Position numbers and translations under genes: made by a program. The notes under the pieces were generated by a model, which saw nothing but the letters and a program-made list of their open reading frames with translations, was not told where the DNA came from and searched no databases. From the NCBI GenBank assembly GCA_025457865.1, contig JALOTP010000012.1, forward strand, positions 1,443 to 65,442: DNA of 64,000 bases. The letters are read 5' to 3'. The stretch comes from Thermoplasmatota archaeon. GTDB taxonomy: Archaea > Thermoplasmatota > Penumbrarchaeia > Penumbrarchaeales > Penumbrarchaeaceae. Positions 29,963 to 49,988 of this stretch are shown piece by piece (the stretch's first letter is position 1; the number at the start of each line of letters is the position of its first letter).

Positions 29963-30354
29963 GATGGTGCGGGCGCCGGGACATCTGGAGGGTCCAATAA
30001 GTGACGATAAACCAACTCCAGATGTCCAGCTAAAAAGATAGTATCAAAAAATAATACTTTTTAGAGTATTAGATCAATGTCAAGAACCATTTTACGAGAA
30101 CATAGAATGATCGACGAAAGTAAAACGGATGAAAAATCACTTCGTGATTTTCCAAGTCTTTGTCCTATGGGCCAAAGATGGTGCGGGCGCCGGGACATAT
30201 GGAGGGTCCAATAAGTGACGAAAAACCAGCTCCAGATGTCCAGGAAAAATGAAAAATAATTTAAATGCCATTTTTCCGTGTATGATCTATGTAAAGCACC
30301 ATTTTACGAGAACATAGAATGATCGACGAAAGTAAAATGGTGCGGGCGCCGGGA
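29963..30354 (-). repeat. tRNA-Gly-linked tandem units: two extra copies of the tRNA 3'-terminal 17 nt, each with hairpin-rich conserved blocks
   Basis: TGGTGCGGGCGCCGGGA at 29965, 30179 and 30338 (tRNA); 67-nt block 29963-30029 vs 30177-30243 (3 mismatches); 40-nt block 30086-30125 identical to 30298-30337. Confidence 0.93.
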
Positions 30355-30414
30355 TTTGAACCCGAGTTCCTAGCTTGGCAAGCTAAAGTGATGACCAGTC
30401 TACACTACACCCGC
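30338..30414 (-). tRNA. tRNA-Gly(GCC), CCA encoded
   Basis: Reverse complement GCGGGTG...TTAGC-TTGCCAA-GCTAG...GGTTCAAATCC...CGCCCGCACCA folds as a cloverleaf. Confidence 0.97.
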
Positions 30415-30446
30415 ATGGACCGGGGAAGTGGTCAAGGTAGTTCCCG

Positions 30447-30460
30447 TTTAAAAATCTTTC
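30447..30460 (-). promoter_or_regulatory. BRE/TATA promoter of tRNA-Gly
   Basis: GAAAGATTTTTAAA on the minus strand, about 33-45 nt upstream of the tRNA 5' end. Confidence 0.6.
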
Positions 30461-30538
30461 ATAGAGCAAGAAGATGGTCGGCCCTGGTCATGGAAAGAGG
30501 TGAAGGTTTAATGTCCTGTTAGTAACTTAGGTCCTCCC

Positions 30539-31252
30539 ATGATGGCAGATGCCTTCGTGAGCCGGAAGCTGGCTCTCGTAACGGGAGGGTGCAGGAACCT
30601 GGGGCTCGAGATATCCAGGGCGCTATTGTCATGCGGTCACCAGGTGATTGCCACGACCCGGGATGCCAGGACATTTACGGAGCTCGGGGACACCTTGTCG
30701 AAGATCGATGTGATACAAGCGGACGTATCGACAGAAGAAGGGGTGGATAGGACCTTTGAATATATTCGGGGAAAGGACCTACCTATAGGTATCCTTGTCA
30801 ATAACGCATCAAGTTTTCCAAGGGGGCCCTTGTTATCCCTAGATGTTAAAGAGTTCCGTCATGCATACGATAGCACCGTAATGTCCGCGTTCATGTGCAT
30901 AAAAAAAGCGGTCCCTCTGATGAAAGTGGTGGGCTGGGGCAGGGTGATAAACATAGGAATGGCAGGGGCCGACAACGTGAGAGGCTACAGGGATGTCGCA
31001 GCACATGCCTCTGCCAAAACCGCATTATCGGTCCTAACGCTCTCGCTCGCTGCCGAACTCGAGGGTACTGGTTTAACGGTGAATATGGTCAATCCCGGCC
31101 CTATCGAAAGAGCGGGATTGACCTCCAAAGAAAGAGAACGTCTAAGTTCCATATCCCCTGCAGGGAGGTTGACCAGGAGCGGAGATATTGTCGGGCAGGT
31201 CATAGAGATGGTCCAAACAGACATCAATGGGACACTATCCACGGTGCTATGA
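30539..31252 (+). CDS. Short-chain dehydrogenase/reductase
   Basis: TGGCRNLG, LVNNAS, HxxxK in place of YxxxK, VNMVNPG. Confidence 0.85.
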   Translation: MMADAFVSRKLALVTGGCRNLGLEISRALLSCGHQVIATTRDARTFTELGDTLSKIDVIQADVSTEEGVDRTFEYIRGKDLPIGILVNNASSFPRGPLLSLDVKEFRHAYDSTVMSAFMCIKKAVPLMKVVGWGRVINIGMAGADNVRGYRDVAAHASAKTALSVLTLSLAAELEGTGLTVNMVNPGPIERAGLTSKERERLSSISPAGRLTRSGDIVGQVIEMVQTDINGTLSTVL

Positions 31253-31333
31253 AGTCCCGATCACATCAATGGGATGGGATATCCCTTCGTTCGTTCCATT
31301 TTATACATTTTCTTGATAATATTAAAATAATCG

Positions 31334-32257
31334 GTGCATTCTGGACATCCTGTGCTATTGGCCTTGCTGGGCACCCTTGTCGGTCTTGCCCTTCTCATCA
31401 TTGGAGCCAACTTCCTTGTGGACGGAGCGGCAGCTCTGGCCAAGAAGATAGGTATAAGCGGTCATGTGATAGGCCTTACGCTTGTTGCAGCGGCCACATC
31501 ACTTCCAGAGCTTTTCACATCGACCGTAGCAACGTTCAGTGGCGAGTACGATATCGCTGTTGGCAACATAGTCGGTTCGAACGCGGTTAATATCTCCTTG
31601 ATACTTGGGATAGGTATACTCATCCAGCCTATAAGGACCAACAGATCGGCCAAGAGGGATAGTATCTTCATTTTAGGTGTAACGGTCCTGCTCTTCTTCC
31701 TGGCTATCCAGGGTATAGAGTTTTGGGAGGCGTTGATATTCCTTGGCCTTTACATTGGGTATACCATCCTGATCTTCCGGTCCAAGGATATGGCCAAGAT
31801 AGATGTGGAGGTAAAGGAGCGGAAACCCTGGATATTGATTTTGCTCATAATCCTTGGCATAGCCTTCCTGTCAATAGGGTCCCCCCTACTTGTTCGGTCC
31901 GCGGCATCATTGGCCGTAGAGGTTGGGGTCTCGGCAGCGGTCATAGGTTCGACCCTTATCGCGGTCGGAACATCGTTCCCTGAGCTCCTTACCAGTATCA
32001 TGGCGTCGGTGAAAGGACATGAAGGGATAGCGTTCGGCAATGTCTTCGGATCCAATATTTTTAATATTCTAATGATACTAGGAGTCAGTGGTATTATCAG
32101 GCCACTTGTTGTGAACGATTTTTTCATTTTTGCGCTCATACCGGCGCTCATCCTACTCCAACTCCTCGGTTCAATCCTTGCATTTGGTAGGATGGGGAGG
32201 AAGGAAGGTGTCATTCTAATATTGGGTTATGTGATATTCCTAGCGCTAATGTTCTGA
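31334..32257 (+). CDS. Na+/Ca2+ (cation/Ca2+) antiporter, YrbG/NCX family
   Basis: Alpha repeats ATSLPE...GNIVGSN and GTSFPE...GNVFGSN; start codon uncertain. Confidence 0.92.
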   Translation: MHSGHPVLLALLGTLVGLALLIIGANFLVDGAAALAKKIGISGHVIGLTLVAAATSLPELFTSTVATFSGEYDIAVGNIVGSNAVNISLILGIGILIQPIRTNRSAKRDSIFILGVTVLLFFLAIQGIEFWEALIFLGLYIGYTILIFRSKDMAKIDVEVKERKPWILILLIILGIAFLSIGSPLLVRSAASLAVEVGVSAAVIGSTLIAVGTSFPELLTSIMASVKGHEGIAFGNVFGSNIFNILMILGVSGIIRPLVVNDFFIFALIPALILLQLLGSILAFGRMGRKEGVILILGYVIFLALMF

Positions 32258-32264
32258 GGATTGT

Positions 32265-34178
32265 TCAGCCCTCTGCCTTTGTGAGATATTCAGCCTTAGC
32301 CGATAGGGACCATTCGTTCCCCGTGTCCGATTGACGTACGATGATACCTACCAGGCCAGTGATATCGCCTGCCTCGGTACATCTGACCACTACCGTCCAT
32401 TCTCCAGTTTCTGATGGTCCTTCCTCAGACGGGTGATAGCTTATCAGTAGGTTCCCCGAACTGATGGGGCCTGCACTATCGACGGGGGTCGTGGAATTGG
32501 GAGGGAGCAGTTCTATCTCGAAGGAATCCGGCAGGTTCCTCAGACCAGGTCTGACGCTCTCGTCGGTCCATGATAGGGAAACGTTGATGTAGTTCACAGA
32601 TTCCCCCACGACCACTATAGGGACAGAGCTCTCCTGGCCTTCATTGGTGCTGTCCGACAGGGAATAGGTCTGTGAAAGGTATTCCCAGACCACGGTAGGT
32701 TCCTCGGTAGAACCCTCCTCTTCAGGGGGATAGTAGGTGTCGGTCCCCATCATGAACCCAGCAACGATCGATATCGGTATCAGGATGGCAACCAAAAAGG
32801 GCGTGGCCTTGAATGTGAAGACCTTCTCGATCATTGGATAACCCTGCTTGCTCGCCTTGTCCCTGGCCGCGGCCTCCTCGCCCTCCTCCATCGCCTTGAT
32901 CCTGTTCGCCCGCGCTATGACGTCCTGCCCCCAGGATTTATAATAGGTCATGAACCCGATAAGGAGGAGGAACCCTAACGCTACCAAGATACCATAGAAT
33001 AGTTTAGGTCTTTCGAACTGGGTGCCGATCACTGTGTAAAGGATACCAAAGACAAGGGTCCCCAACCATAGACCGCTCATGGATGAGAGGAAATTGGTCC
33101 CCAGGTAGGCAGATACCTTATCTTTCGTTGCGAGTTTGGAAACGAAGGCATAGTAACCCGGTGCCACAAGGAACTCTCCAACCGATGAGATGACGATACC
33201 AATTATCACGAAGGTCCAATTCAATGAAAGACCGAAAAAACCAATGAAAGCCAATCCGATGACATAGAGCAGTACGCCCATCATCACTGCAATAAGTGAT
33301 TCAAGTTTCTCGACCTTCTTAGCTAGATATGGCCCGGCCAGAATGATCGTCAAAGGGTTGGGGATTGCTAGGATCATCACACCGAACCAGCTAGGGACCA
33401 TCTTGAAATTGAACAATGCGGAGGGCAGAGCGTTAAGCGTAGAGGAGTATAAGGCCCAGAATCCCGCTATCAGGAAGACCATCACAAGGAACTTCTTATC
33501 CCTGAAGGCGATGGCGATATTCTTCCTGACATCCTTTACCGTCCTTACATTCCCAGACCTTGGCACCTCCTTGAAAATGGTCAGGAGGATCACCAGATTG
33601 ATGAGGAAGAAGAAGGCCCCGACCCTGAAAACCCACGCATACAAGGATGGGCCGAACAATTTCAGGATCTCCAATGCAACATAGATCATAGGGAAGACCG
33701 CAGCAGCAAGGTTCACGAACCAGTAATAGATGGAATATGCCATGTTCCTCTGGTCCTGGTGGGTGGATTTTGCTATCGTAGCTGAGATAAGGGGCTTGTA
33801 GGACCCTATACCGAAACCTATCATCATGACACCCAGGATGAGCGTCAGCGGACCTGATGCGAATGATAGGAAGAGGTAGGCGAAGAAGAGAACGGTATAT
33901 GCAAAGAACATCTGCTTCTTGAAACCCCATTTCTCGGCCAGGGCACCGCTCAGGATAGGAAGGCCGTACTGTATTGGATACATGAAGATCGTAATGTTCA
34001 CAGCGATCCAGACAGGGACTCCCAGGTTGTATTGCGCATAGTAGACAATTATCGGAACAAAGGTGTAATAGGCCCCCCTCTCCATTAGTTCGAATATCTG
34101 GACGATCCAGAATACCGATTGGAACCCTCTGATCTTCTGTAAGAAGCTCTGCTCTTTCTCGGGTTCCGTCGTATCCAT
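32265..34178 (-). CDS. MFS transporter of POT/peptide-transporter type with extra TM and C-terminal soluble domain
   Basis: ELMERGAYY (ExxER motif), YSIYYWFVN, GEFLVAP. Confidence 0.8.
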   Translation of the reverse strand: MDTTEPEKEQSFLQKIRGFQSVFWIVQIFELMERGAYYTFVPIIVYYAQYNLGVPVWIAVNITIFMYPIQYGLPILSGALAEKWGFKKQMFFAYTVLFFAYLFLSFASGPLTLILGVMMIGFGIGSYKPLISATIAKSTHQDQRNMAYSIYYWFVNLAAAVFPMIYVALEILKLFGPSLYAWVFRVGAFFFLINLVILLTIFKEVPRSGNVRTVKDVRKNIAIAFRDKKFLVMVFLIAGFWALYSSTLNALPSALFNFKMVPSWFGVMILAIPNPLTIILAGPYLAKKVEKLESLIAVMMGVLLYVIGLAFIGFFGLSLNWTFVIIGIVISSVGEFLVAPGYYAFVSKLATKDKVSAYLGTNFLSSMSGLWLGTLVFGILYTVIGTQFERPKLFYGILVALGFLLLIGFMTYYKSWGQDVIARANRIKAMEEGEEAAARDKASKQGYPMIEKVFTFKATPFLVAILIPISIVAGFMMGTDTYYPPEEEGSTEEPTVVWEYLSQTYSLSDSTNEGQESSVPIVVVGESVNYINVSLSWTDESVRPGLRNLPDSFEIELLPPNSTTPVDSAGPISSGNLLISYHPSEEGPSETGEWTVVVRCTEAGDITGLVGIIVRQSDTGNEWSLSAKAEYLTKAEG

Positions 34179-34290
34179 TTAAAAAACCTTGATTTCCCTA
34201 ACCACGACATATTATAAAAAAGTTCAATAAGGGGCATGGATGATTGGACATGGATGAACATGGGCGTTTTTTTTCGATAAGAGGTAGGTC

Positions 34291-35256
34291 ATGCCTTCTA
34301 AGAACAAGACAGGGAGCAGGAAGGAGGCAACCTCCCAAAGGGAGGGCCTGGGCTATGCACTGATAGCCATGACGGTGGTCCTATGGAGCATGATAGAGGT
34401 CATCTCCAAGCTCATACAGGCCGACCTTCACCCCATGACGATCGCCTTCCTCAGGTTCTTCATTGGCGGTCTCTGCCTTATGCCCTTCGCCCTGTTCTAT
34501 GGGAGGTACAACAAATGGAAAGAGCTCGGGGCCAGGGATTGGTTGTCGTTCCTGCTCCTCAGCTTCCTGGGAATATCCCTCACGTTCTCCCTTTTCCATC
34601 TCGCCCTTTACTGGATGGACGCATCCTCCACCGCGGTCATCATTTCGACGGTCCCCATCTTCGCAGCGCCAGCAGCATACTTCTTCCTTGGTGAACGGAT
34701 CAGACCCATAGCCCTGGCCGGTATAGCCCTTGGAGGAGCTGGTGTTTTCATCGTCTATCTGTCCGAATCGAACACGTGGCATTCGGCCCTTGGGACATTG
34801 ATGATGCTTGTCTGCGTCATCGCTTTCACTGTCTATTCGGTACTGATGAAGAGGCTCAATCAGAGGATGGACCCCAGGTTCTCTACCCCGGCCAGTCTCT
34901 GGCTCGGTTCACTGATGATGGCCCCCCTGCTCTTGCTTGAAAAGGCCCCTCTGTATCGACCGCTCCCCCTCCAGCCCTTATTGGTCCTGCTCTTCCTGTC
35001 GGTGTTCGGGGTCGGGGCTTCCTATATGTTCTATTTCATGGGACTGTCCAGGGTCAAAGCCTCCAAGGGAGTCTCGCTGATGTACCTGAAGCCGTTCCTT
35101 GCAGGTTTCTTTGCAGTTCTCCTTCTTCAGGAGGCCATCTCCTTCCAGAGGGCGATATCCATAGTCATCGTAGGCCTGTCCCTCTATCTGATCCTGGAAG
35201 AGGGCAGGGTCAAAGAGCTCATCAAGGGTTGGATGAAGAACAGGTCAGGTCCATGA
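34291..35256 (+). CDS. EamA/DMT-family transporter
   Basis: About 10 TM; AFLRFFIG, FLGER, LLQEAIS. Confidence 0.88.
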   Translation: MPSKNKTGSRKEATSQREGLGYALIAMTVVLWSMIEVISKLIQADLHPMTIAFLRFFIGGLCLMPFALFYGRYNKWKELGARDWLSFLLLSFLGISLTFSLFHLALYWMDASSTAVIISTVPIFAAPAAYFFLGERIRPIALAGIALGGAGVFIVYLSESNTWHSALGTLMMLVCVIAFTVYSVLMKRLNQRMDPRFSTPASLWLGSLMMAPLLLLEKAPLYRPLPLQPLLVLLFLSVFGVGASYMFYFMGLSRVKASKGVSLMYLKPFLAGFFAVLLLQEAISFQRAISIVIVGLSLYLILEEGRVKELIKGWMKNRSGP

Positions 35257-36546
35257 CCTGCGGAAAGAGAGCCCCATCTTCGCAAGCCTTTCAAGGACGG
35301 GTCCATAGATCGCCGGTACTGAGGGTATCATAACACCGGACAGTCCTTTGAGCTCTCCTTTTAGTACCATCTCCGCGGCCAATGCCGCTGGAAGGCCCAC
35401 CGTCCTTGACATGGCGGAGTCCCCATCAGGGATACCTTTGGCTATCAGCGTTGATCTGATAGTGCTCTTCCCTTCGCTACCGGACGTCCCGAACCGATGT
35501 TCTAGGACGATCATGTCCCGTTCTCCTGGAGCATAGTTGAGCTTCGTCTCCAGGAGCACAGAAAGGGCATCGATCCTGCTGCTACCCTCGATGATCGGTA
35601 TATCGGAGAGAAGGCCCAACCATTCCCAGTTGGAAAGGACCCTCCAGTTGTCACGTGTCCTCAATAGCTTCAAGGCCCGCCCCCTTATATCGCCAGGGCC
35701 GGGGGCAAGTCCCTCAAGCAGGCCACGGTAGGTCTTCGCGTTCGCTGGGGAATCGTCGAGCATACCGATATCGTGAAGCCCCTTCCAGGTATCGCACCAA
35801 CCCTTGTTCCTCAGCGTTCCTCTAAGGACGGTCCGTGCTTCTGGTATACCGTAGGTCGCGGCATACGGGACCGAGTCCCTGTTCGGGTAGCCCTCGAACT
35901 CCCCCAACCCCGCTATTGGTACATGGACATAGGACCCGAACAGCTCCCTTCCAGGGACCTCTATGTCCCTGCCGTCTTTCCTGAACCTTGCGCTGTTCCT
36001 GGACGCGAGAACGACACCTCGAGGGCTCCATGAGAATTTGTAGCCCCAAGGGTTGGTATTATGCTCAGGCGACGGCAGACCCCCGCAGTAGGATACGAAC
36101 TCCTGAACGCGGACATCCTTGCTCTTGAGCTCATCGATTATGCTCATGGCCTCCATGTGGTCAATGCCCGGGTCCAGGCCTATCTCGTTCAGGAACAGTA
36201 GCCCTGCGTCCTTTGCCCGCGCATCCATCTCCCTCATTGCGGGGCTTACATAGGAGGTGGTGATCATGTGCTTCCCCTCCTCAAGGCAGGCCCTTGCCAC
36301 CGCAGGATGGTGGGTGTAAGGGAGCAGGGATATGACGACCTCATGGTCCGATACCAGTCCGAGTAGGTCCATCTCATAGGAGATATCAAAGGCCAATGGG
36401 TCGCCTTTAGGATGCCCCTCCACCAATTGAACGGCCTTCTCGACCGTCCTGCTTGCGACCGTGACATCGAAACCTCCGACCTCGAGGAGGTATCTGATCA
36501 GTGGCCTGGCAACTAGTCCGGCTCCCAGCACCAGAACGTTCCTGAT
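35245..36546 (-). CDS. Saccharopine dehydrogenase (glutamate-forming, Lys9/AASS C-terminal type); start codon non-canonical or uncertain
   Basis: VLVLGAG, SLLPY, TTSYVS, EIGLDPGIDHM, SYCGGLP, YKFSWSP, YPNRDS, RGTLR, SAMSRTVG. Confidence 0.9.
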   Translation of the reverse strand: MRNVLVLGAGLVARPLIRYLLEVGGFDVTVASRTVEKAVQLVEGHPKGDPLAFDISYEMDLLGLVSDHEVVISLLPYTHHPAVARACLEEGKHMITTSYVSPAMREMDARAKDAGLLFLNEIGLDPGIDHMEAMSIIDELKSKDVRVQEFVSYCGGLPSPEHNTNPWGYKFSWSPRGVVLASRNSARFRKDGRDIEVPGRELFGSYVHVPIAGLGEFEGYPNRDSVPYAATYGIPEARTVLRGTLRNKGWCDTWKGLHDIGMLDDSPANAKTYRGLLEGLAPGPGDIRGRALKLLRTRDNWRVLSNWEWLGLLSDIPIIEGSSRIDALSVLLETKLNYAPGERDMIVLEHRFGTSGSEGKSTIRSTLIAKGIPDGDSAMSRTVGLPAALAAEMVLKGELKGLSGVMIPSVPAIYGPVLERLAKMGLSFRRSWT

Positions 36547-36550
36547 AATA

Positions 36551-37873: not shown

Positions 37874-37930
37874 CCCTGACCGGCAATGGACAACTGGGAT
37901 TATAAGGGCTCTGTATTCTTAGAGCATCCC

Positions 37931-38227
37931 TCATTTCTTATTGTACTTCGGTAGGGTCCCGTGCTTCTTCTTGAACTCGTCCAAGGCTTCCCTCCAGGCA
38001 GTTTCGGCCTCTTCCGGGGTAGCGAAATATTCCACCGAGAAGAACTTTGCACCATCGGCTGGGGTCTCAGCACCGGGTAGATGTTTGAGGAGATGCTTCT
38101 GAACATTCCCCTTCCCCAGGAAGACCGGTTTCTTAAGTTCGTCGGCCAGCCTGTACAGGCCCCATCTCTTCTCGACCTGAGAGACAAACTTCTCCGTATA
38201 GGGGTAGAATGTGAATTCCATTATCAT
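37931..38227 (-). CDS. Small degenerate GIY-YIG-like protein
   Basis: GLYRL...VFLGKG-NVQKHLLKH...LPKYN pattern; start 38227 or 38221. Confidence 0.55.
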   Translation of the reverse strand: MIMEFTFYPYTEKFVSQVEKRWGLYRLADELKKPVFLGKGNVQKHLLKHLPGAETPADGAKFFSVEYFATPEEAETAWREALDEFKKKHGTLPKYNKK

Positions 38228-38288
38228 GTCCACACCCGCGATATCATGGTCGTTCCTCATTTAAAAAGGTTCCGTTGGAGAGGTGGTC

Positions 38289-41896: not shown

Positions 41897-41930
41897 GAAG
41901 GCACCTATGTGCGGTAAGGTCGGTCACTAT

Positions 41931-41972
41931 TTATGCATTATCATACTTATCATACATTTCATATTTTCATTT
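41931..41972 (-). promoter_or_regulatory. Candidate operator of short tandem ATGA-core repeats upstream of the AbrB-ABC operon
   Basis: Minus strand AAATGAAAATATGAAATGTATGATAAGTATGATAATGCATAA; perfect TTATCATAC x2 at 41938-41955. Confidence 0.5.
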
Positions 41973-42080
41973 TTTAAGGGTCGATCCACGAGCGTCCACA
42001 TATGCGAAGGTCAAAGCCCCAACTTTGGTAGGGCCTGATATGGGATGAAGTGGGACAGGACGAGCCTGGGATAGGGTTCG

Positions 42081-43409: not shown

Positions 43410-43465
43410 CCTACCTTGATGGTCTCGTGGACTTATAAAGATAGCACTGCTCCCTTTGACCTATG

Positions 43466-44284
43466 TTAGTCCCAGTATCTCCCGGACCCTGTCATCATCT
43501 GCTTGTAGATGGCGAGCGGCCATTGGCCTTCTTTGCCGCCCTTCGTTTTGGGCATCTCCTCCGAATAGATGAAGCAGCTCCGCAGTATCCCCAGAAAGAA
43601 CACTCTCCTCTTGGGAACGAAGATGTTCCGTTTGTTGATGTAGCCGTTCTGGTCTATCATCAGCACCGGGCTGCCGCTCGAGCCGGGGAATATGGACCCG
43701 TCGAGGAGGAACATGGATTTCCCGTTAAAGTCAATGGAGAACGGGGTCGCTGTCGTCCCTTTCCTTACGACCGGTAGATAGTTCACCTTATCATGGACAT
43801 CGTTCGGATAGCCTATGAAATAGACGTCCTCAAGGGCATCTATCATCGTTCTTCTCTGCCTCATTGTCGGTACCAGGTCCTTGGTGAGGGCCTGGACGTA
43901 GGTCCTGTCCCTGTTCTTCCTCAGGAAATCGTAGATGAAGGAGACCGGCATGATCGCGAGGTCGATGTCGTCAGGATGGTGATGCCACCCTTTCCAGACG
44001 TCTTTGACCTTGAGGCTCACCTTGCCTTGAGGGTCGGGGAGGTCCCCGATCCTTGAGTGCAATGTCAGTGTACCCTCGTTCAGTTCGTTCACCACATGGC
44101 TGTTGGACACCAGGAAGAGGTGGTCGACGCCTGCGAAGCGATGGTTGTAGAAGAACGCTGTCCCGCTGACCTTGTCCCCGTCCTCGCTGATGCCGCTCAT
44201 CCGGACAGTGATGTAGAAGAGCCTTTCGAGCAATGAGGGACCTTTGATCATCTTCCCATATCTCCCCGTCCCATCATGACCCAC
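43466..44284 (-). CDS. Trypsin-like serine protease (possibly with damaged C-terminus)
   Basis: Triad motifs VSNSHV, DIDLAI, FPGSSGSPV. Confidence 0.8.
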   Translation of the reverse strand: MGHDGTGRYGKMIKGPSLLERLFYITVRMSGISEDGDKVSGTAFFYNHRFAGVDHLFLVSNSHVVNELNEGTLTLHSRIGDLPDPQGKVSLKVKDVWKGWHHHPDDIDLAIMPVSFIYDFLRKNRDRTYVQALTKDLVPTMRQRRTMIDALEDVYFIGYPNDVHDKVNYLPVVRKGTTATPFSIDFNGKSMFLLDGSIFPGSSGSPVLMIDQNGYINKRNIFVPKRRVFFLGILRSCFIYSEEMPKTKGGKEGQWPLAIYKQMMTGSGRYWD

Positions 44285-44490
44285 TTTTATGTAAATAATA
44301 CTGCCCGCTCCGAACAGCTTGGACCGATAAAAGAGGTTGTATTCGGACCGCTAGGTTGCGGGCGGAGGGATAGGTCAGGGACTGTGGGGATGATGACCGG
44401 AAAAATGTTGACAATTACCCCCGCCTGTCCGACATTTAAATATATTATTAGGAGCAATCCCATTTTGTCTGTTACGTGGGGGAACTAAAC

Positions 44491-44988
44491 ATGAGGGTAA
44501 TGACGATAGTAATAACAATGACATTTGTGTGTCTCGCACTAGCTGGAATGTTGAGCATCGAGGGCGAAGGGGCTAGGACGTGGGAGAGCAAGCACATCTA
44601 TTCCGGCCAGTGGTTGTTTTTCGAGGTCGGAAATCTGGACAAGGGTGTGGAGATAGAATACGGTGTAAAGGTCACCACCCCGGACGAGTCCGTGAACCTG
44701 GCGTTCATGGATTCGACCAACTACGCGGCCTTCTCTTCCAGCGTAGGAGAGACCTTCGTGGGCCAGGACGTCCAGTACCAGGTCAGGAGCAGGGAGGCCA
44801 AATGGACGACCCCGTACCAGCAGCAGTGGTATTTCGTAGCGATATCCGATAGCGGGTACGAGATCGACATCGATTATTATGTCGAGGCCAAGGAGGACTC
44901 GACAGATGTCGCCTGCCTTGGCAGTATATTCGCGGGGGTTTTGATCCTCCTCGCAGTAACCGTAGCGGTCTCCTACCTGAGAAAGTAG
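44491..44988 (+). CDS. Small secreted beta-sandwich protein with C-terminal Cys-TM-basic anchor
   Basis: Signal peptide; tail 'VACLGSIFAGVLILLAVTVAVSYLRK'. Confidence 0.7.
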   Translation: MRVMTIVITMTFVCLALAGMLSIEGEGARTWESKHIYSGQWLFFEVGNLDKGVEIEYGVKVTTPDESVNLAFMDSTNYAAFSSSVGETFVGQDVQYQVRSREAKWTTPYQQQWYFVAISDSGYEIDIDYYVEAKEDSTDVACLGSIFAGVLILLAVTVAVSYLRK

Positions 44989-45051
44989 GTTTCGGTTCAT
45001 TGTTCTGATATTTTAGCGCTAAGTACGTGGGATAATGGGGGTTCGAGAGAT

Positions 45052-46944
45052 ATGCGCGGAGTAGATAAGGGAGATGCGGTTAGAATTGGATTGGTATTCC
45101 TGCTGGTATCTGTCCTGATCACCTCTGGATGCATCCAGGAAGAGAAGGACGATGGGGACAAGAATAAAGGTGGAGGGGGTCAGACCGGGGGGGCGGACAC
45201 GGACAAGGATGGGGTACTCGATGCCACTGATGCTTTCCCTAGCGACCCTGCCGCATCGGTCGACACCGATGGCGACGGACTGCCGAACCAGTGGAACCCC
45301 GGCCAATCGCAATCGAACTCTACGACCGGCCTGACGATAGACCCCTACCCCAACGATCCGAACAACGGGGCGGGTGATGACGATGATGATAATAATACAA
45401 ACAACAACACCTCCGGGGACACTTGGACGTTCATGGTCTATATGAGCGATTGCGACCTGGAGTACTTCGCTCTACTAGATTTCAACGAGATGGAATCCAT
45501 AGGCAGCGGGGACAAGTACAATATCGTCGTACAATTGGACAGATGGGAGAGCGACTCCGAAAGGGATGACCGGTCGAACGGGGACTGGCGGACGGCTAAG
45601 AGGTTCCTGGTGAAAAAGGACGCGAACGCCGAGCTCATAAGCTCGCCGGCGATTTCGGACCAGGGGGAGATAAACTGCGGGGACCCAGCACAGCTGGTTA
45701 GCTTCGTTAAATGGGCTATGACGACCTATCCCGCGGAGCATTACTTCCTTGACCTCTGGGACCATGGTGACGGTATCGAGGGCGTCTGCTGGGACCAGTC
45801 GACCCCGGGTAACGACCAACTAACGATCAAAGAGCTGGGGTCCGCATTGTCACAGATCACGAACAACGGGGCCAAGAAGCTCGACATCATTGGGTTCGAT
45901 GCGTGCCTGATGTCGACCATAGAGGTCGCCTACGAAATGGCGCCGTATTCCAAATACATGATAGCCTCCGAGATAACCGAACCAGGCTCGGGCTGGGATT
46001 ACTCCTTCCTTTCCGCGCTCGCCACGGACCCGACCATAGGCGCGGTCCCGCTCGGTAAGAAGATAGTTGACACCTTCGTGGCACAGAGGACCGAGAACCC
46101 TGCGCAGTCCCATACTTTGAGCCTCCTGGACCAATCCAAGGTCGGAGGTGTGAAGTCAAACCTGGACCAGTTCACGGCCGCGGTCAAGAATGCAAGCGGG
46201 ACAGAGCTGTCGGTCATGAAGCAGGCCAGAGAGAGCGCTCAGCCGATAAAGAAAGGGTCTTCTTCCAACATGGTGGACATATACGATTACCTGACCAAGG
46301 CAAAGACACTTTCCGGGAACGGTAATGTCCAGACAGGTGCGCAGAAGGTCATCGATTCGCTCGGCGGCTTCGTCCTCCACTTCCTGAAGTTCAGCGGGAC
46401 CAATGACCTCAACGTTGACAATGCGCATGGATTGAGCATATACGCCCCAGAGTTCGGTCTGGCCCAGCAGGACGAGTACGCCGACACATCGTTCGAGGAC
46501 GATTCGAGCTGGGACGAGCTCCTGGACGATTACTACAGCGAGTTCCAGGTGGACCAGGTCATATATTTCGTCCCGGCGACATTGATGTACATGACGACCG
46601 ACGGGGACCTGGACGGTGACCAAGATTCGCTCTGGGTACAGTTCGAGATCAACTCCCGGGAGGACTACGTCTACGGATACCTCTCTATTGATGTCTATGA
46701 CGCCCTGGGATATCTCATAGACTACCTCGAGTATAACTTCGTCATAAGCACATACGAGACGATCTCCGTAGAACTGGGGGAGCTCGGGTTCGCACTGGAA
46801 GAGACCGACGGGGAGCCAGGGTATTACCAGATGGTCATCTACATGTGCCTTGGCGACCAGTTCGATATAGACTACATCCAGGACTATGCAGAGACCGACC
46901 TTGTTTGGCTCGAATACTATGAGGGTGGCGGTGGGGGCGGATAG
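45052..46944 (+). CDS. Clostripain-family (C11) cysteine peptidase, lipoprotein with TSP3 repeats
   Basis: Lipobox ITSGC; DTDKDG/DTDGDG; WTFMVYM; WDHGDG (His); FDACLM (Cys); ASE..PG.GWDY; GLSIY. Confidence 0.92.
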   Translation: MRGVDKGDAVRIGLVFLLVSVLITSGCIQEEKDDGDKNKGGGGQTGGADTDKDGVLDATDAFPSDPAASVDTDGDGLPNQWNPGQSQSNSTTGLTIDPYPNDPNNGAGDDDDDNNTNNNTSGDTWTFMVYMSDCDLEYFALLDFNEMESIGSGDKYNIVVQLDRWESDSERDDRSNGDWRTAKRFLVKKDANAELISSPAISDQGEINCGDPAQLVSFVKWAMTTYPAEHYFLDLWDHGDGIEGVCWDQSTPGNDQLTIKELGSALSQITNNGAKKLDIIGFDACLMSTIEVAYEMAPYSKYMIASEITEPGSGWDYSFLSALATDPTIGAVPLGKKIVDTFVAQRTENPAQSHTLSLLDQSKVGGVKSNLDQFTAAVKNASGTELSVMKQARESAQPIKKGSSSNMVDIYDYLTKAKTLSGNGNVQTGAQKVIDSLGGFVLHFLKFSGTNDLNVDNAHGLSIYAPEFGLAQQDEYADTSFEDDSSWDELLDDYYSEFQVDQVIYFVPATLMYMTTDGDLDGDQDSLWVQFEINSREDYVYGYLSIDVYDALGYLIDYLEYNFVISTYETISVELGELGFALEETDGEPGYYQMVIYMCLGDQFDIDYIQDYAETDLVWLEYYEGGGGGG

Positions 46945-46968
46945 GTAATATCGAGAAGTGATAGGATA

Positions 46969-46977
46969 TTTTTTTTT
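46969..46977 (+). terminator. Archaeal oligo-T terminator (T9)
   Basis: T9 run 24 nt after the clostripain stop. Confidence 0.5.
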
Positions 46978-47167
46978 GTCCCGGTCCACTGATAGCCATT
47001 AGGAGCGATCGTTCGCCCATACCGACACCTTATTAAGGTCACTGTTCAATCTATATCAATAGGATGGGGGTGTTGGTCTGAAGGATGTTGGAAAAGGGAA
47101 AATACAAACCAGACAGGAACGGATAGAGAACGCCTCAGAGCTTTTCCTCAAAGCCTTTGACAGGGTC

Positions 47168-48526
47168 ATGAAGATGCGCTCTGTCGAGGAAGACCTTGAC
47201 CGGGCGGCGAACAGTCTCCTTGAACTTGGTGTGCAGCCTTTTCATCTGATACGACCTGTGAGGTCGTTCTGCGAACCTCTGGAGATAGAAGGCGATATAT
47301 CGGATCGGATCGGGTCCCGGCTCTCCCTGATGAGGAAGGTAGGAAGCGGGAACCCTCTTTTCGAGGAAGAGTTCGCAAGAGCGCTCATTTTGGGGGGGAT
47401 GGGCGACCCTCTTTCGAACCCTGCGATCCCCGGGTGCAGGGTTATCAGGGACCGCGAGACACTGATGAGGATGGCATCGCTCGCTAGAGCCATCAGGGCT
47501 CGATCATATGGGACTGGTGATGGTAATGATGCTTTTTTCAGGGAGGACTTCCTCTTCAATGCATTTGTTCGTTCGATGGTCAAGGGTGGGATGGGAGGCC
47601 CTTCCATATCAGAAAGTGCTGATATGATGTACCGCCCCGGCTTCCAAGCTGCACCCATCAGTACGAACTGGTCATACTGGTTCGACTGGCTATATTTCCT
47701 GATGGACCATCCGACCGGGGAGGGGTTCCATGAACCTCCACAATGTATGAACTGCGGTAGATGCCTGGACGATCTGGGGGTCCAAGAATGTCCCGGTTGC
47801 GGGGAGGACCCATGGCAGTGGTGGTTCCAGTGGTTCTACGCAAGGCATGCACCGGAGGATATGACGGAGAGGTCCTGGGACATGTTCCAGCTCCATACCT
47901 ATACGGATGGCAGGGTATTCCACCCCAGGACCGAAGGGTGGATATCGTCCCTGACCCACATACCAGTTCAAGAGGAGGGGCGGTTCAGGCTGGATGTCGT
48001 ATCCAGGGCGGTTGTGATAGCACCCCTCTTGTGGGCACCGCCGGGGGGGATAGTGGACCTTGACATCTGGCACTCGGTGGGGTTCGGTCCCTATCCCGCC
48101 ACATCCATCAGGCACCCTTCCTATAACGATGCCAACGGGATCCCGGTGGAGTTCGCCCATAGGAGCCCGTTCGAGAAGCTGATCATGAGAGGAACGCTGG
48201 ATGCTCGCAGCGGGGAGCATAGCCTCGATATTATGGAAGGAGCTATAAGATACGATGCGACCGACCCTGTCGGACCCGGACGTTCTAAGGTCACCATAGG
48301 ATCCTCCACCATCGATACCGGGGAGATGAGAGATGGGAAGGCTCGGTGGAACGCTCTGACCCCTGTTGTCGAGGGGCCGGGTGTGTTCATAGTGAGGGAG
48401 GAGGTCACCTACATCCTGGAGGACCCCTTGGCATCGGGATACAGGTCGATATTGCCAATTTATACAGGACAACCTGGTGGATGGTTCGAACCATTGTCTT
48501 ATAGGGTGGTAGAGGCCGATCGATGA
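47168..48526 (+). CDS. Hypothetical protein with internal CxxC-CxxC zinc finger and Trp-rich motifs
   Basis: 452-aa ORF; CMNC...CPGC; may start at CTG 47078. Confidence 0.65.
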   Translation: MKMRSVEEDLDRAANSLLELGVQPFHLIRPVRSFCEPLEIEGDISDRIGSRLSLMRKVGSGNPLFEEEFARALILGGMGDPLSNPAIPGCRVIRDRETLMRMASLARAIRARSYGTGDGNDAFFREDFLFNAFVRSMVKGGMGGPSISESADMMYRPGFQAAPISTNWSYWFDWLYFLMDHPTGEGFHEPPQCMNCGRCLDDLGVQECPGCGEDPWQWWFQWFYARHAPEDMTERSWDMFQLHTYTDGRVFHPRTEGWISSLTHIPVQEEGRFRLDVVSRAVVIAPLLWAPPGGIVDLDIWHSVGFGPYPATSIRHPSYNDANGIPVEFAHRSPFEKLIMRGTLDARSGEHSLDIMEGAIRYDATDPVGPGRSKVTIGSSTIDTGEMRDGKARWNALTPVVEGPGVFIVREEVTYILEDPLASGYRSILPIYTGQPGGWFEPLSYRVVEADR

Positions 48527-48536
48527 GGAAGGATCA

Positions 48537-49592
48537 CTAACGCTCCCTTTTGTACCTCTGATAGTGTCTGATGTCCTTCTTCAAGCTTCTCCATCTAGCC
48601 TTTTCAGCCGACGCCGCGGACATGTCTGCCCTCATCCTGGTATGATGCAGCTCCCTCTTCATCTTCTGGTAGCTCTCGTACCTCTCCCTTGAAAGCTCCC
48701 CGTTCTCCAACGCGTTGAGAATTGCGCAGTCAGGTTCTGTAAGGTGCTGACAGTCCTTGAACCTGCAGTTCTCTGAGAGCCCCTGGATGTCCGCGAACGC
48801 ATTGTCTATGTCCTCGTCCTCTGCCCAGAGCTGGAGCTCCCTGATACCAGGATTGTCGATGATCAATGCCCCCGACCTGAGGAGGTACAGCTCCCTTGAT
48901 GTGGTTGTGTGCCTGCCCTTGTCCATATTTCCGACGGAAGAGGTCCTGATCCTCTCCTCTCCAAGGAGCCTATTGATCAACGTTGATTTGCCGGAGCCCG
49001 AGGACCCGAGAAGGCAGATCGTCCTGCCCGGGACCAGAGATTTCTCGACCTCTTCCACCCCGGTTCCGTTCAATGCGCTCATCATCAGGACCGGTATGTT
49101 CCCTGCGATATCGAGGACCGCGCTCATCATAGCGTCCGGGTCCTCAGCGATATCGCATTTGTTGAGGAGGACCAACCCTTCTGCCCCTGATGAGGAGATC
49201 ATCACAAGGTAGCGTTCCAGCCTCCTCAGGTTGAAATCGCCGTCCATTCCCATCATGACGAAGATGGTGTCTATGTTGGCGGCCACAAGCTGTTCGGAGG
49301 TCGCCTTTCCCGGAGCCTTCCTGGATATCCTGGTCCTTCTGGGGAGGACCATGACGATGGAAATGGTGCCCTGGACCTCCTTCAATACGACCCAATCGCC
49401 CACGACCGGAGGTCCTTCAGGCCGGGTCCTCAGTTTGCCGGAATTGTTGGGTATGCGCTCTCCCTTTTCTGTCATCACGTGGGACCGCTTGCCGTCGGAA
49501 CTGAGGACCCTTCCCAGGAAAGTATCTTCTAAAGAAAGAGATGAATAGTGTTGATGTGTGTTCTCATCCAGACCGAACGAACCGAGGAACAT
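48537..49592 (-). CDS. rsgA: Ribosome small subunit-dependent circularly permuted GTPase A
   Basis: VVGDWV, ANID, LNKCD, GSSGSGKSTLIN, GRHTT, DNPG, CRFKDCQHLTEPDC; start 49592 or 49625. Confidence 0.92.
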   Translation of the reverse strand: MFLGSFGLDENTHQHYSSLSLEDTFLGRVLSSDGKRSHVMTEKGERIPNNSGKLRTRPEGPPVVGDWVVLKEVQGTISIVMVLPRRTRISRKAPGKATSEQLVAANIDTIFVMMGMDGDFNLRRLERYLVMISSSGAEGLVLLNKCDIAEDPDAMMSAVLDIAGNIPVLMMSALNGTGVEEVEKSLVPGRTICLLGSSGSGKSTLINRLLGEERIRTSSVGNMDKGRHTTTSRELYLLRSGALIIDNPGIRELQLWAEDEDIDNAFADIQGLSENCRFKDCQHLTEPDCAILNALENGELSRERYESYQKMKRELHHTRMRADMSAASAEKARWRSLKKDIRHYQRYKRER

Positions 49593-49728
49593 ATCATTTC
49601 CTGGCCAGCAGTAAGAGAGATGCATATTTCAACTGTTCGATTCATGGACAATGGAAATGGCGACTGGGTCAAAGGGAAGAGCAGATTTAATAATGGACCT
49701 GACATTTGACCCGCTGCCAACGCACCTT

Positions 49729-49810
49729 GCGAGGGTAGCCAAGTGGTTAACGGCGACAGACTCAAGATCTGTTCCTTAGTGGTTCGTCGGTTCGAATCCG
49801 GCCCCTCGCA
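49729..49810 (+). tRNA. tRNA-Leu(CAA), CCA not encoded
   Basis: GCGAGGG...ACAGA-CTCAAGA-TCTGT, long variable arm, GGTTCGAATCC, CCCTCGC-A; TTTAATA box at about 49686. Confidence 0.97.
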
Positions 49811-49988
49811 TCTCATTTTAATATTATCAAAGAGAGGCCGGATTCGAACCTTGGTTCCTTTGGAACGTTAGCATTGAGAGAGTCAAAAAGTTCCAAAGGT
49901 CTGGAAAATGCCCAAGGCATTTTTCAAAGACGGATCCGGCCCCTCGCATCTCATTTTAATATTATCAAAGAGGGGCCAGTTTCGAATC
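49796..49988 (+). repeat. tRNA-Leu-linked direct repeat (55 nt, period 138) enclosing a two-hairpin insert
   Basis: 49796-49850 vs 49934-49988: first 39 nt identical, 4 mismatches overall; starts with the tRNA 3'-terminal 15 nt. Confidence 0.93.

What the first reader, a model, noticed from the sequence alone, without database searches (positions are those of the whole stretch)
30126..49930. Same covarying two-hairpin mini-module downstream of two unrelated tRNAs, 20 kb apart: candidate tRNA-anchored element system
Seen: in tRNA-sense orientation the Gly locus (minus strand of 30130-30154) reads TGGAAAAT-CAC-GAA-GTG-ATTTTTCA and the Leu locus (49902-49926) reads TGGAAAAT-GCC-CAA-GGC-ATTTTTCA. 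Both are 25 nt with identical 8-nt outer arms and the same G-T wobble, and the inner stem changes are compensatory. Each is preceded 3 nt upstream by a hairpin closed by CTTTGG...CAAAG (30157-30178; 49857-49899). Each lies between duplicated copies of its own tRNA's 3' end. At the Gly locus the module is a clean ~53-nt insertion present in one tandem unit (directly after the duplicated CCA) and absent from the other. Inference: this is a structured, non-autonomous element or RNA signal that is mobilised or maintained specifically at tRNA 3' ends by an enzyme acting in trans. No recombinase is visible in the window. I cannot tell whether it has been described before.
Basis: partly seen in the sequence, partly recalled or inferred. 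Interest (0 to 1): 0.85.

Follow-up and report, generated by a model that had tools for sequence, protein, structure and literature searches.

The report
Hairpin repeat arrays behind archaeal tRNAs
The two matching hairpins are real, but they are small parts of a much larger family of hairpin-rich DNA repeats that trail half of this archaeon's tRNA genes, each repeat ending in a copy of that tRNA's own tail, much like the still unexplained "tRNA-linked repeats" of E. coli.

Summary
Observation confirmed. TGGAAAAT-N9-ATTTTTCA occurs exactly twice in the window (0.02 expected), each time behind a second hairpin and between copies of the tRNA 3' end.

It is not a stand-alone element. In this Thermoplasmatota MAG, 20 of 40 tRNA genes carry a 12-nt or longer copy of their own 3' end (X) within 800 nt downstream. 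Tandem units of 1-4 lie there. Each holds an inverted copy (X'), one to three perfect palindromes and X. One unit type (25 copies here) has three hairpins; 19 of its 27 pairs show compensatory changes. A model of it hits 23 of 23 genomes of the same family.

Stems show no G-T excess (54 G-T against 47 A-C in 2257 cells), which argues for DNA palindromes rather than a selected RNA. Unit type tracks similarity of X. Hairpins are swapped between arrays. Close relatives differ by whole units, and by the 53-nt Gly module.

I found no HUH transposase (0 of 24 genomes). This genome has no Cas1, RT or TnpB, only a XerA-like recombinase. A small integrase sits beside arrays in two relatives.

Best reading: recombination-driven tRNA-linked repeats. 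The scan met this kind before in at least 8 other archaeal genomes. My literature searches found only the E. coli TLRs as a counterpart.

The parts
30338..30414 (-). tRNA-Gly(GCC). Its last 17 nt (30338-30354, TCCCGGCGCCCGCACCA on the tRNA strand) are copy X0 of the repeated tRNA end.
   Evidence: ARAGORN; Rfam 58.1 bits; X copies
30196..30337 (-). Unit U1 body, with three hairpins. Hairpin A: GCACCATTTTAC pairs with GTAAAATGGTGC, so it includes the tRNA end. Then a central A-run/T-run hairpin. Then hairpin B: GGACATCTGGAG/CTCCATATGTCC with a TCGTCAC loop motif.
   Evidence: nhmmer; alignment and RNAalifold; absent in G001, replaced by a different proximal unit in G002; one low-depth contig of run X4 skips exactly 30178-30336
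30179..30195 (-). X1, a 17-nt direct copy of the tRNA-Gly 3' end including CCA
30126..30178 (-). It is inserted between CCA and TTTTAC.
   Evidence: absent at the same junction in G002 and G001; sister copies behind CCA at tRNA-Leu(GAG) and two tRNA-Ser arrays
29982..30125 (-). Unit U2 body (hairpins A, central, B). It is the distal unit, with orthologues in G001 and G002.
29965..29981 (-). X2, the last 17-nt copy of the tRNA-Gly 3' end. It abuts the stop codon of a convergent nitrilase-family gene (29119-29961).
49728..49812 (+). tRNA-Leu(CAA). X0 is 49796-49810. The 39-nt repeat copy 1 is 49796-49834.
49837..49851 (+). X', an inverted copy of the tRNA T-arm (GGCCGGATTCGAACC). It forms a palindrome of about 15-20 bp with the tRNA 3' part.
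   Evidence: DNA fold of 49790-49855 -17.4 kcal/mol, z -5.5
49855..49899 (+). Hairpin h1 (TTCCTTTGGAAC...GTTCCAAAGG), a homologue of hairpin B. Its stem is conserved and its loop varies among G000, G001, G002 and G004.
49902..49926 (+). Hairpin h2, TGGAAAATGCCCAAGGCATTTTTCA: the A-run/T-run hairpin that precedes the X copy
49934..49972 (+). Second copy of the 39-nt repeat (X1 plus trailer), followed by a decayed second X' (GGGCCAGTTTCGAATCC). The locus therefore holds about 1.4 units of a 138-nt tandem repeat.

Best explanation
The hairpin pair is a cassette of a lineage-wide family of tRNA-linked DNA repeats. Behind at least half of the tRNA genes lie 1-4 tandem units. I read them as DNA-level repeats that need no dedicated transposase, and I propose three processes. 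(1) Arrays gain and lose whole units by recombination or replication slippage between the X copies. (2) Single hairpins or hairpin pairs are exchanged between arrays by gene conversion through the conserved flanks (...CCA | TTTTNC..., GCTGG | ... | GGTCCC), most easily between tRNA genes whose 3' ends are alike. (3) Stems are created and kept perfect by intra-strand template switching or palindrome correction, not by selection on an RNA fold. On this reading the 53-nt Gly module is a recently swapped-in cassette. Its closest relatives sit behind CCA at tRNA-Leu(GAG) and tRNA-Ser. The Leu(CAA) module is an old resident unit kept across genera. What is shown: the anatomy, the distribution, the covariation, the lack of G-T bias, the mosaicism, the copy-number differences, and the link between unit type and X. 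What is inferred: the recombination and template-switch mechanism, and any effect on the cell. Possible effects are several T5-T7 tracts and palindromes behind strongly transcribed tRNA genes, and extra att-like tRNA ends that integrases can use.
For: Distribution. There are 25 three-hairpin units, all co-oriented with a tRNA gene. 19 lie within 443 nt 3' of an ARAGORN tRNA. The other 6 lie behind an Rfam-confirmed intron tRNA or on contigs that continue arrays broken at contig ends. 20 of 40 tRNA genes have a direct copy of 12 nt or more of their 3' end within 800 nt downstream, and most of these also have an inverted copy. In 25 of 29 X copies a hairpin ends within 8 nt of X, against 178 of 580 shuffles.
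Structure. 27 consensus pairs, 19 with double compensatory changes.
DNA rather than RNA. In 87 distinct units from G000 and 16 relatives' genomes (all of family f1), the stems hold 2093 Watson-Crick, 54 G-T, 47 A-C and 63 other cells of 2257. If the one terminal pair that carries 33 G-T cells (31 TG + 2 GT) is set aside, G-T is 21 against A-C 46. The A-run/T-run hairpin occurs on either strand relative to the tRNA: 8 co-oriented and 14 opposite of 22.
Turnover. At tRNA-Gly(GCC), G001 has 1 unit, G002 has 2 units and no H, and G000 has 2 units plus H. The distal unit is shared. Each proximal unit looks like a copy of its neighbour with one hairpin replaced. Gly(TCC) has 1 unit in G000 and 3 in G002; Ala(TGC) has 3 and 2.
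Mosaicism. For most units the best match of a segment lies in another array. The best match lies in the unit's own array for 5, 4 and 3 of 14 units (segments A, C, B) in G000, and for 5, 5 and 2 of 11 in G002. All 7 cross-array segment pairs with at least 0.95 identity join tRNA-Ala genes with identical X.
Unit type follows X. Spearman 0.37, and 1 of 5000 label permutations reaches it. Among the 217 pairs of tRNAs for different amino acids rho is 0.29.
No enzyme found..
Precedents. E. coli has 22 tRNA-linked repeats at 10 loci, each ending in 18-19 bp of the upstream gene's 3' end, mostly with no known function (PMC8144298, passages read). Template switching in replication is reported to create and maintain perfect hairpins (PMC8794818; I saw only the search listing and the first lines of the abstract).
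Against: Structure conserved in 23 of 23 genomes of the family, and the Leu(CAA) module kept at the same locus in another genus with conserved stems and free loops, look like purifying selection. Neutral repeats would not obviously show this. A motif T(A/T)TCGTC(R)AT recurs in the loops of hairpins A and B and looks like a protein-binding site. The A-run/T-run hairpin keeps a G opposite the extra T in most copies printed (my reading of the printout, not a scripted count). Pure palindrome correction should erase that asymmetry. Units with similar bodies occur behind tRNAs for different amino acids, so some transfer across different X must happen, and plain homologous recombination explains this poorly. 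The Gly comparison fits addition at the tRNA-proximal end, which is what repeated site-specific integration would give. A small integrase family lies just distal to arrays in two relatives. MAGs often lack plasmids and viruses, so missing enzymes are weak evidence. No direct observation of recombination products exists beyond one contig at depth 2.5.
Confidence: 0.42

Rival explanations
1. Miniature non-autonomous integrative cassettes. Units or hairpin modules are excised and inserted at the tRNA 3' end by a tyrosine integrase supplied in trans by plasmids or viruses that target tRNA genes. X is the att core. The loop motifs and hairpins are arm-type or structure-specific recognition sites, somewhat like integron attC sites.
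For: Every unit is bounded by direct copies of the tRNA end. At tRNA-Gly the distal unit is shared by three genomes while the proximal part differs. A TCGTCRAT motif occurs twice per unit. Unit type follows the X sequence. A small integrase family (242-254 aa; the G002 and G011 members are 63% identical) lies within about 130-250 nt (G002 about 130, G011 about 215) of the most distal X copy at tRNA-Ser(GCT) and tRNA-Val(GAC). Mobile elements are often missing from MAGs.
Against: That integrase is absent from this genome by tblastn. It was found in only 5 of 24 family genomes, while units are in 24 of 24. The other three members show no tRNA next to them. New proximal units carry the resident array's own hairpin A (41 of 41 nt in G000), so they look like local copies with a swapped hairpin rather than imported whole units. 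X' is not explained by simple integration. Circles of 110-170 bp are poor double-stranded substrates. Two unit motifs gave 0 hits in the viral contig collection.
Confidence: 0.26
2. Functional RNA. The units are co-transcribed with the tRNA, as E. coli TLR/rtT RNAs are. The X'-X helix (about 12 bp, the length of an acceptor/T-arm minihelix) and the X copy act as RNase P/RNase Z-type processing signals that release small structured RNAs. Alternatively the T-rich hairpins act as a battery of terminators or insulators behind tRNA genes.
For: Units are strictly co-oriented with the tRNA and adjacent to it. Each X copy is followed by the same T-rich trailer as the tRNA. There is strong covariation and conservation across the family. 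T5-T7 tracts lie on the tRNA strand in most A/T hairpins. In E. coli the repeated 3' end is linked to processing, and three TLRs are sRNAs (PMC8144298). [quoted passage not shown]
Against: There is no excess of G-T over A-C in 2257 stem cells, unlike selected RNA helices. The A/T hairpin is used in both orientations. T5-T7 tracts inside units should stop archaeal RNA polymerase before it reaches X (established knowledge of archaeal termination, recalled, not tested here). There is no Rfam match beyond the tRNAs at E<=1.
Confidence: 0.2
3. REP/BIME-like palindromes, or IS200/IS605-type miniature elements, moved as single strands by a Y1 HUH transposase (RAYT/TnpA).
For: The elements are short imperfect palindromes with a conserved asymmetry that occur in either orientation and in clusters. 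The left hairpin pairs with the target end, which resembles guide-target pairing in IS608 (a resemblance recalled, not tested).
Against: Pfam Y1_Tnp was found in 0 of 24 genomes of the family, 8 of which are at least 90% complete. There is no TnpB in this genome. The distribution is tRNA-anchored, not scattered.
Confidence: 0.04

Closest known systems
tRNA-linked repeats (TLRs) of Escherichia coli, e.g. the 178-bp repeats of the tyrT operon with rtT/RttR RNA (Rfam RF00391) and rrA/rrB/rrF
   Same: Both are non-coding units immediately 3' of tRNA (or rRNA) genes, in the same orientation, one to a few in tandem. Each unit ends in a copy of the 3' end of the gene just upstream (18-19 bp in E. coli, 12-22 nt here). 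They occur at many loci in one genome, and their function is largely unknown (PMC8144298, passages read).
   Different: There is no sequence or structure match to RtT. The archaeal units also carry an inverted copy of the tRNA end and one to three perfect covarying palindromes. They occupy half of the tRNA genes and are shared by a whole family of Thermoplasmatota. Whether they are transcribed is unknown. Whether E. coli TLRs have inverted copies was not checked here.
att-site duplications left by elements that integrate into tRNA gene 3' ends (tyrosine integrases of archaeal and bacterial viruses, plasmids and islands), including tandem integrations
   Same: Direct repeats of the tRNA 3' end bound the inserted DNA and the tRNA stays intact. 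Arrays can be polar. A real integrase gene sits distal to arrays in two relatives.
   Different: Units are 110-215 nt with no genes. There is no integrase in this genome other than a XerA-like one. The units form a structured, conserved family and are not decayed remnants of varied elements.
Integron cassette arrays with folded attC sites
   Same: Both are tandem cassettes, and each carries an imperfect palindrome whose structure is conserved while its sequence varies.
   Different: These cassettes have no ORFs, and no attI or integron integrase context was seen. The only recombinase here scores below both the XerA and the integron-integrase cut-offs (183.9 against 220 bits; 169.2 against 265 bits). 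The palindrome is built from the host tRNA's own end.
REP/BIME elements with RAYT transposases
   Same: Both are clustered short palindromes with a conserved asymmetry, in either orientation.
   Different: No Y1 transposase in 0 of 24 genomes. Location is tRNA-anchored.
[quoted passage not shown]
   Same: It is a conserved hairpin just 3' of about half of the tRNA genes of an archaeon (PMC5217627, passages).
   Different: It is a single short palindrome. No copies of the tRNA end and no tandem units are described.

Membership tests
E. coli-type tRNA-linked repeats (TLR / RtT) | Unit lies immediately 3' of a tRNA or rRNA gene, in the same operon orientation | tested here: met
   All 25 U units are co-oriented with a tRNA. 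19 lie within 443 nt 3' of an ARAGORN tRNA, and the other 6 are explained by an intron tRNA or by contig breaks.
E. coli-type tRNA-linked repeats (TLR / RtT) | The 3' end of each unit is identical to the 3' end of the upstream gene (18-19 bp in E. coli) | tested here: met
   Copies are 12-22 nt. 20 of 40 tRNA genes have a copy of 12 nt or more within 800 nt downstream, and 29 X copies have at most 1 mismatch in 13 nt.
E. coli-type tRNA-linked repeats (TLR / RtT) | One to five units per locus, at several loci per genome | tested here: met
   1-4 units per locus at 20 or more loci.
E. coli-type tRNA-linked repeats (TLR / RtT) | Homology to the RtT covariance model RF00391 | tested here: not met
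   cmscan of window 29000-51000 at E<=1 found only the two tRNAs and a weak sR2 hit.
E. coli-type tRNA-linked repeats (TLR / RtT) | Transcribed with the tRNA and processed out of the primary transcript | not testable with these tools
   No RNA run holds the region.
Miniature or decayed elements integrated by a tRNA-targeting tyrosine integrase | Direct repeats of the tRNA 3' end flank the inserted DNA | tested here: met
Miniature or decayed elements integrated by a tRNA-targeting tyrosine integrase | A cognate integrase is encoded by the element or elsewhere in the genome | tested here: inconclusive
   This genome (89% complete) has only one XerA-like recombinase and no homologue of the small integrase. 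In relatives the small integrase lies beside arrays in 2 of the 5 genomes that have it.
Miniature or decayed elements integrated by a tRNA-targeting tyrosine integrase | Filled and empty sites differ exactly by the element plus one att copy | tested here: inconclusive
   G001 lacks U1, X and H. G002 lacks H only. One X4 contig at depth 2.5 lacks U1. Homologous deletion between X copies gives the same pattern.
REP/BIME-RAYT or IS200/IS605 miniature elements | A Y1 HUH transposase is present in genomes that carry the repeats | tested here: not met
   PF01797 in 0 of 24 genomes of the family.
Casposon or CRISPR-like arrays | Cas1-family integrase; a fixed 14-15-bp target duplication with terminal inverted repeats | tested here: not met
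   No Cas1 in this genome (relatives not searched). Duplications vary from 12 to 39 nt, and no terminal inverted repeats were seen.
Integron cassettes | Integron integrase with attI, and cassettes that usually carry an ORF plus attC | tested here: not met
   Units have no ORFs. The only recombinase scores below the integron-integrase cut-off and is not next to an array in this genome.

The most novel reading that the evidence does not exclude
A lineage-wide, enzyme-driven cassette system anchored on tRNA genes. A structure-reading recombinase would recognise the DNA hairpin formed by a tRNA's 3' end and its inverted copy, and would add, swap or remove small hairpin cassettes at the tRNA-proximal end. 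This would build polar arrays, an integron- or CRISPR-like 'recording' architecture with no genes in the cassettes. It might serve to shield or multiply the tRNA att sites that archaeal viruses and plasmids use.
Probability: 0.15. Interest if true: 0.88.

Novelty: new variant of a known kind. Interest (0 to 1): 0.62.

Why it matters
tRNA-linked repeats have been known in E. coli since 1978 and, for the copies in tRNA operons, are still without a function (PMC8144298, passages read). This work shows an archaeal counterpart that is far more elaborate. It sits behind half of the tRNA genes, has three kinds of covarying palindromes, carries an inverted as well as a direct copy of the tRNA end, and is conserved in every sampled genome of a Thermoplasmatota family. 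It gives a large natural data set (hundreds of units with known orthology) for three questions. How are perfect hairpins born and maintained in DNA? Why do tRNA 3' ends attract duplication and integration? Do such arrays influence tRNA transcription end points or integration by mobile elements? It also warns annotators that repeated partial tRNA ends in archaeal MAGs need not be prophage scars, and that these arrays break assemblies.

Tried and rejected
- RNA evidence: the look-up of sequencing runs listed no RNA holder, so expression could not be examined.
- Read laying gave contigs only. The arrays are fragmented in them. The only relevant joint is one 206-nt contig at depth 2.5.
- Rfam: no family beyond tRNA.
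- Viral contig collection: 0 hits for a hairpin-B motif and for the h2 motif. These are exact-pattern scans, so this is weak.
- Metagenome scan with a 19-nt hairpin-B word: 7 short contigs, with units recognised in 6 of them (none in L089) and a tRNA-Ala directly upstream in 2. None holds an integrase.
- Integrase next to the tRNA-Gly(TCC) array in G007: it is the orthologue (54% identity) of this genome's XerA-like gene, which is not next to an array here. No further X copy lies within 13.7 kb. I take the adjacency as chance.
- The 5-kb extra segment after the Leu(CAA) module in G002 carries an Lrp/AsnC-like gene (my reading of its first residues) and further ORFs that I did not search. It has no integrase hit and no distal X copy, so I did not treat it as an integrated element of this system.
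- ORFs next to arrays in this genome are ordinary genes: nitrilase family, SDR, cation efflux, surface proteins.
- The hairpins on contig C18 lie upstream of an AbiEii toxin-antitoxin gene and are not tRNA-linked.
- Retroviral-type primer-binding-site idea: rejected. X' is complementary to the gene plus its trailer, not to a CCA-tailed mature tRNA (Val-GAC).
- First attempt at the test of X against unit body was out of register and weak (133 of 2000 permutations). It was redone anchored on the T-loop.
- The search for related loci with the small integrase found only 4 close relatives.
- The tRNA-Leu(CAA) locus of G006 could not be placed by my script and was left out.

Full report
**What is in the window**

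tRNA-Gly(GCC) lies at 30338-30414 on the minus strand and tRNA-Leu(CAA) at 49728-49812 on the plus strand (Rfam 58.1 and 57.6 bits). The pattern TGGAAAAT-N9-ATTTTTCA has these two sites only; 0.02 are expected, and 0 of 100 shuffles reach the observed count. Each 25-mer follows, after 2 nt, a second hairpin closed by (T/C)CTTTGG...CAAAG(A/G). As single strands both modules fold into two hairpins far better than shuffles do (z -4.3 and -5.8). At the Gly locus the tRNA-strand order is: tRNA, unit U1, X1, the 53-nt module H, unit U2, X2. X is the 17-nt tRNA end TCCCGGCGCCCGCACCA. At the Leu locus the order is: tRNA, an AT-rich loop, an inverted copy of the T-arm (X', 49837-49851), hairpin h1, hairpin h2, then a second copy of a 39-nt stretch that starts in the T-loop.

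**The module is part of something much larger**

The window is contig C66 of a 2.71-Mb, 108-contig genome, 89% complete. Earlier notes of this scan call it an uncultured Thermoplasmatota archaeon. Relatives' records carry that name.

A genome-wide scan for the hairpin grammar finds 10 places.
- Seven lie in tRNA-linked repeats. Two are in the window. The others are 96 nt 3' of tRNA-Arg(TCG), 26 nt 3' of tRNA-Ser(TGA), one 5' of that same tRNA-Ser, one behind an intron-containing tRNA that Rfam confirms, and one in an array whose X copies equal the end of tRNA-Leu(GAG), which sits at a contig end.
- Three are elsewhere: two on C18 upstream of an AbiEii gene, and one weak site on C93.

The 'tandem units' at the Gly locus belong to a family that I call U. 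Iterated nhmmer finds 25 copies, every one co-oriented with a tRNA gene and 3' of it: Ala x3 genes, Leu x4, Gly x2, Ser x2 and Glu, with 1-3 copies per gene.

Each U unit has three hairpins.
- Hairpin A has a stem built from the tRNA end plus trailer (GCACCATTTTNC) and its complement. It changes with the tRNA: GCGCCA for Ser, GCACT for Leu-TAG.
- The central hairpin is an A-run/T-run hairpin.
- Hairpin B has about 12 bp, with at least five different stem sequences.
A 12-17-nt copy of the tRNA end follows.

RNAalifold on 19 units gives 27 pairs, 19 of them with double compensatory changes. The loops of A and B share a motif T(A/T)TCGTC(R)AT.

Other tRNA genes carry simpler units of the same design. 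These are Trp, Val x2, Arg x2, Met x2, Tyr, Pro, Ile and Leu-CAA. The design is X, an AT loop, X', a spacer, an A-run/T-run hairpin (sometimes preceded by a hairpin-B-like stem), then X.

In all, 20 of 40 tRNA genes have a direct copy of 12 nt or more of their last 25 nt within 800 nt downstream. In 25 of 29 X copies a hairpin ends within 8 nt of X, against 178 of 580 shuffles.

In G002 its loop still carries TTATCGTCAC.

**Relatives**

A covariance model of U (R1) hits 27 of 41 genomes searched, G000 included.
- It hits 23 of 23 other genomes of the same family (7 genera, 4-22 hits each).
- It hits 3 of 17 genomes outside the family.

The Leu(CAA) module sits at the orthologous locus in G001 and G002 (same genus) and in G004 (another genus). 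Stems are conserved and loops are free. The h2 inner stems are GCC/GGC, GCC/GGT, CGG/CCG (with a 19-nt loop) and GCC/GGC. G006 could not be placed.

At tRNA-Gly(GCC), G001 has one unit, the orthologue of U2. G002 has two units and no H. G000 has two units plus H. So H is a clean 53-nt presence/absence difference, and the distal unit is the shared one. H-type modules sit behind CCA at tRNA-Leu(GAG) and tRNA-Ser(TGA) in both G000 and G002. Copy numbers differ at Gly(TCC) (1 against 3) and Ala(TGC) (3 against 2). One low-depth contig of run X4 joins the tRNA directly to H and skips U1. This is weak evidence.

**RNA or DNA**

I aligned 90 units (87 distinct) from G000 and 16 relatives' genomes, all of family f1, to the model. 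The stem cells are 2093 Watson-Crick, 54 G-T, 47 A-C and 63 other, out of 2257. Without one terminal pair that carries 33 G-T cells (31 TG + 2 GT), G-T is 21 against A-C 46. Selected RNA helices tolerate G-U far better than A-C, and these stems do not. This points to palindromes that matter, or arise, at the DNA level.

The A-run/T-run hairpin is an exception in one respect. In most copies printed the T run is one longer than the A run and faces a G (my reading of the printout, not a scripted count). But the same hairpin (GGAAAATGCCC...GGGCATTTTTC) lies on the opposite strand as the central hairpin of U units in G004 and in the Leu(GAG) array. Of 22 such hairpins, 14 are opposite and 8 co-oriented. 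So its polarity belongs to the hairpin and not to tRNA transcription.

**How the arrays change**

New proximal units look like copies of their neighbour with one hairpin replaced.
- In G000, U1 and U2 share hairpin A (41 of 41 nt) and nearly share hairpin B, but have different central hairpins.
- In G002 the two units share A and the central hairpin but differ in B.

For most units the best match of a given segment lies in another array. The best match is in the unit's own array for only 5, 4 and 3 of 14 units (segments A, C, B) in G000, and for 5, 5 and 2 of 11 in G002. All 7 cross-array segment pairs with at least 0.95 identity join tRNA-Ala genes with identical X. Pairs with 0.85-0.90 identity also join Ala with Gly or Leu.

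Across 22 loci, unit-body similarity rises with identity of the 13-nt X (Spearman 0.37; 1 of 5000 label permutations reaches it). Among the 217 pairs of tRNAs for different amino acids rho is 0.29. The loci are not independent, so these figures are descriptive.

**Enzymes**

- This genome has no Y1 HUH transposase, Cas1, reverse transcriptase or TnpB hit.
- It has one tyrosine recombinase, XerA-like, which scores below the curated cut-off.
- Y1 transposases are absent from all 24 family genomes.
- PF00589 hits occur in 16 of 24 genomes; most are XerA-like.
- A small integrase family (five family genomes; the G002 and G011 members are 63% identical) lies just beyond the most distal X copy at tRNA-Ser(GCT) in G002 and at tRNA-Val(GAC) in G011. 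So real integrases do use these sites.
- That integrase is absent from G000, and the other three members show no tRNA nearby.
- Genes next to the arrays in G000 are ordinary.

**Reading**

The closest described thing is the E. coli tRNA-linked repeat family. It has 22 units at ten loci, 1-5 per locus, each ending in 18-19 bp identical to the 3' end of the upstream tRNA or rRNA gene. It has no known function apart from three rRNA-linked members (PMC8144298, passages read). The archaeal arrays share that design but do not match RtT, and they add the inverted copy and the covarying palindromes.

I favour (0.42) DNA-level repeats that propagate in three ways:
- recombination or slippage between X copies;
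- hairpin-scale gene conversion between arrays with similar X;
- template switching, which creates and corrects palindromes. This mechanism is reported to create and maintain perfect hairpins (PMC8794818; I saw only the listing and the first lines of the abstract).

The main rivals are trans-mobilised mini-cassettes of a tRNA-targeting integrase (0.26) and co-transcribed functional RNA or terminator batteries (0.20). Three things fit none of the neutral versions comfortably and keep the bolder readings alive: family-wide conservation, the recurrent loop motif, and the conserved asymmetry of the A/T hairpin.

**Literature and earlier notes**

My searches found no description of such arrays in archaea. 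The nearest item is a single palindrome 3' of M. kandleri tRNA genes (PMC5217627, passages). Casposon papers were seen only as listings. Supplementary files were not consulted.

Earlier notes of this scan describe tRNA-end hairpin repeats in at least 8 other archaeal genomes (Thermoplasmata, DPANN, Micrarchaeia) and named the E. coli repeats as the closest known thing. I used that as a lead and checked it against the paper and against Rfam. None of those notes concerns this DNA.

Noticed in passing
G000 contig C33, about 4715-4840 (locus L004), 5' of tRNA-Ser(TGA): A mirror-image architecture on the 5' side of a tRNA. It has a direct copy of the first ~22 nt of the tRNA, then the hairpin AGGAAAATCCGAAAGGATTTTCC, then an inverted copy of the D-arm region, just upstream of the real gene. 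The repeats can therefore also form at tRNA 5' ends.
   Followed up: partly
G000 contig C18 (locus L001) 1000-1150: An array of alternating hairpins (GGAAAAT-type and ATGTCGAGAC...GTCGAGACAT) that is not near any tRNA. It lies upstream of an AbiEii-type toxin gene (1369-1806) and two AAA_14/DUF4143 ATPase genes.
   Followed up: partly
L040 (G002:C2) 1726-6837, against window ~49960-50000: G002 has about 5 kb more than G000 directly after the tRNA-Leu(CAA) module. It holds an Lrp/AsnC-like ORF (my reading of its first residues), a 241-aa ORF and an 802-aa ORF with hydrophobic stretches that I did not search. The PF00589 search gave no hit there, and there is no distal copy of the tRNA end.
   Followed up: partly
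L047 1128-1799 (G002:C33) and L081 10153-10881 (G011:C12): A small tyrosine integrase family (223 aa or more, and 242 aa; 63% identical) lies just distal to the last tRNA-end copy at tRNA-Ser(GCT) and tRNA-Val(GAC). Both elements run off the contig ends.
   Followed up: partly
L093 and L094, about 130 nt upstream of the integrase gene: A stretch GATCCAGTGCTCCA resembles the 3' end of tRNA-Trp (AATCCCAGTGCTCCCA). It lies between a protein gene and the small integrase and may be a decayed att site.
   Followed up: no
contig ends of G000: C24, C37, C87, C108: Arrays behind tRNA-Glu(TTC) and tRNA-Leu(GAG) are split over contig ends. These repeats evidently break short-read assemblies, so copy numbers in MAGs are lower bounds.
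   Followed up: partly
window 50392-55836 (+): A 1814-aa ORF with several bacterial Ig-like domains (Big_13, Big_5, Big_7) and a CarboxypepD_reg domain starts about 420 nt after the Leu locus.
   Followed up: no
window 33576-33630 (+): A weak match to the C/D-box sRNA family sR2 (20.7 bits against a gathering score of 42, E 0.94). Probably chance.
   Followed up: no
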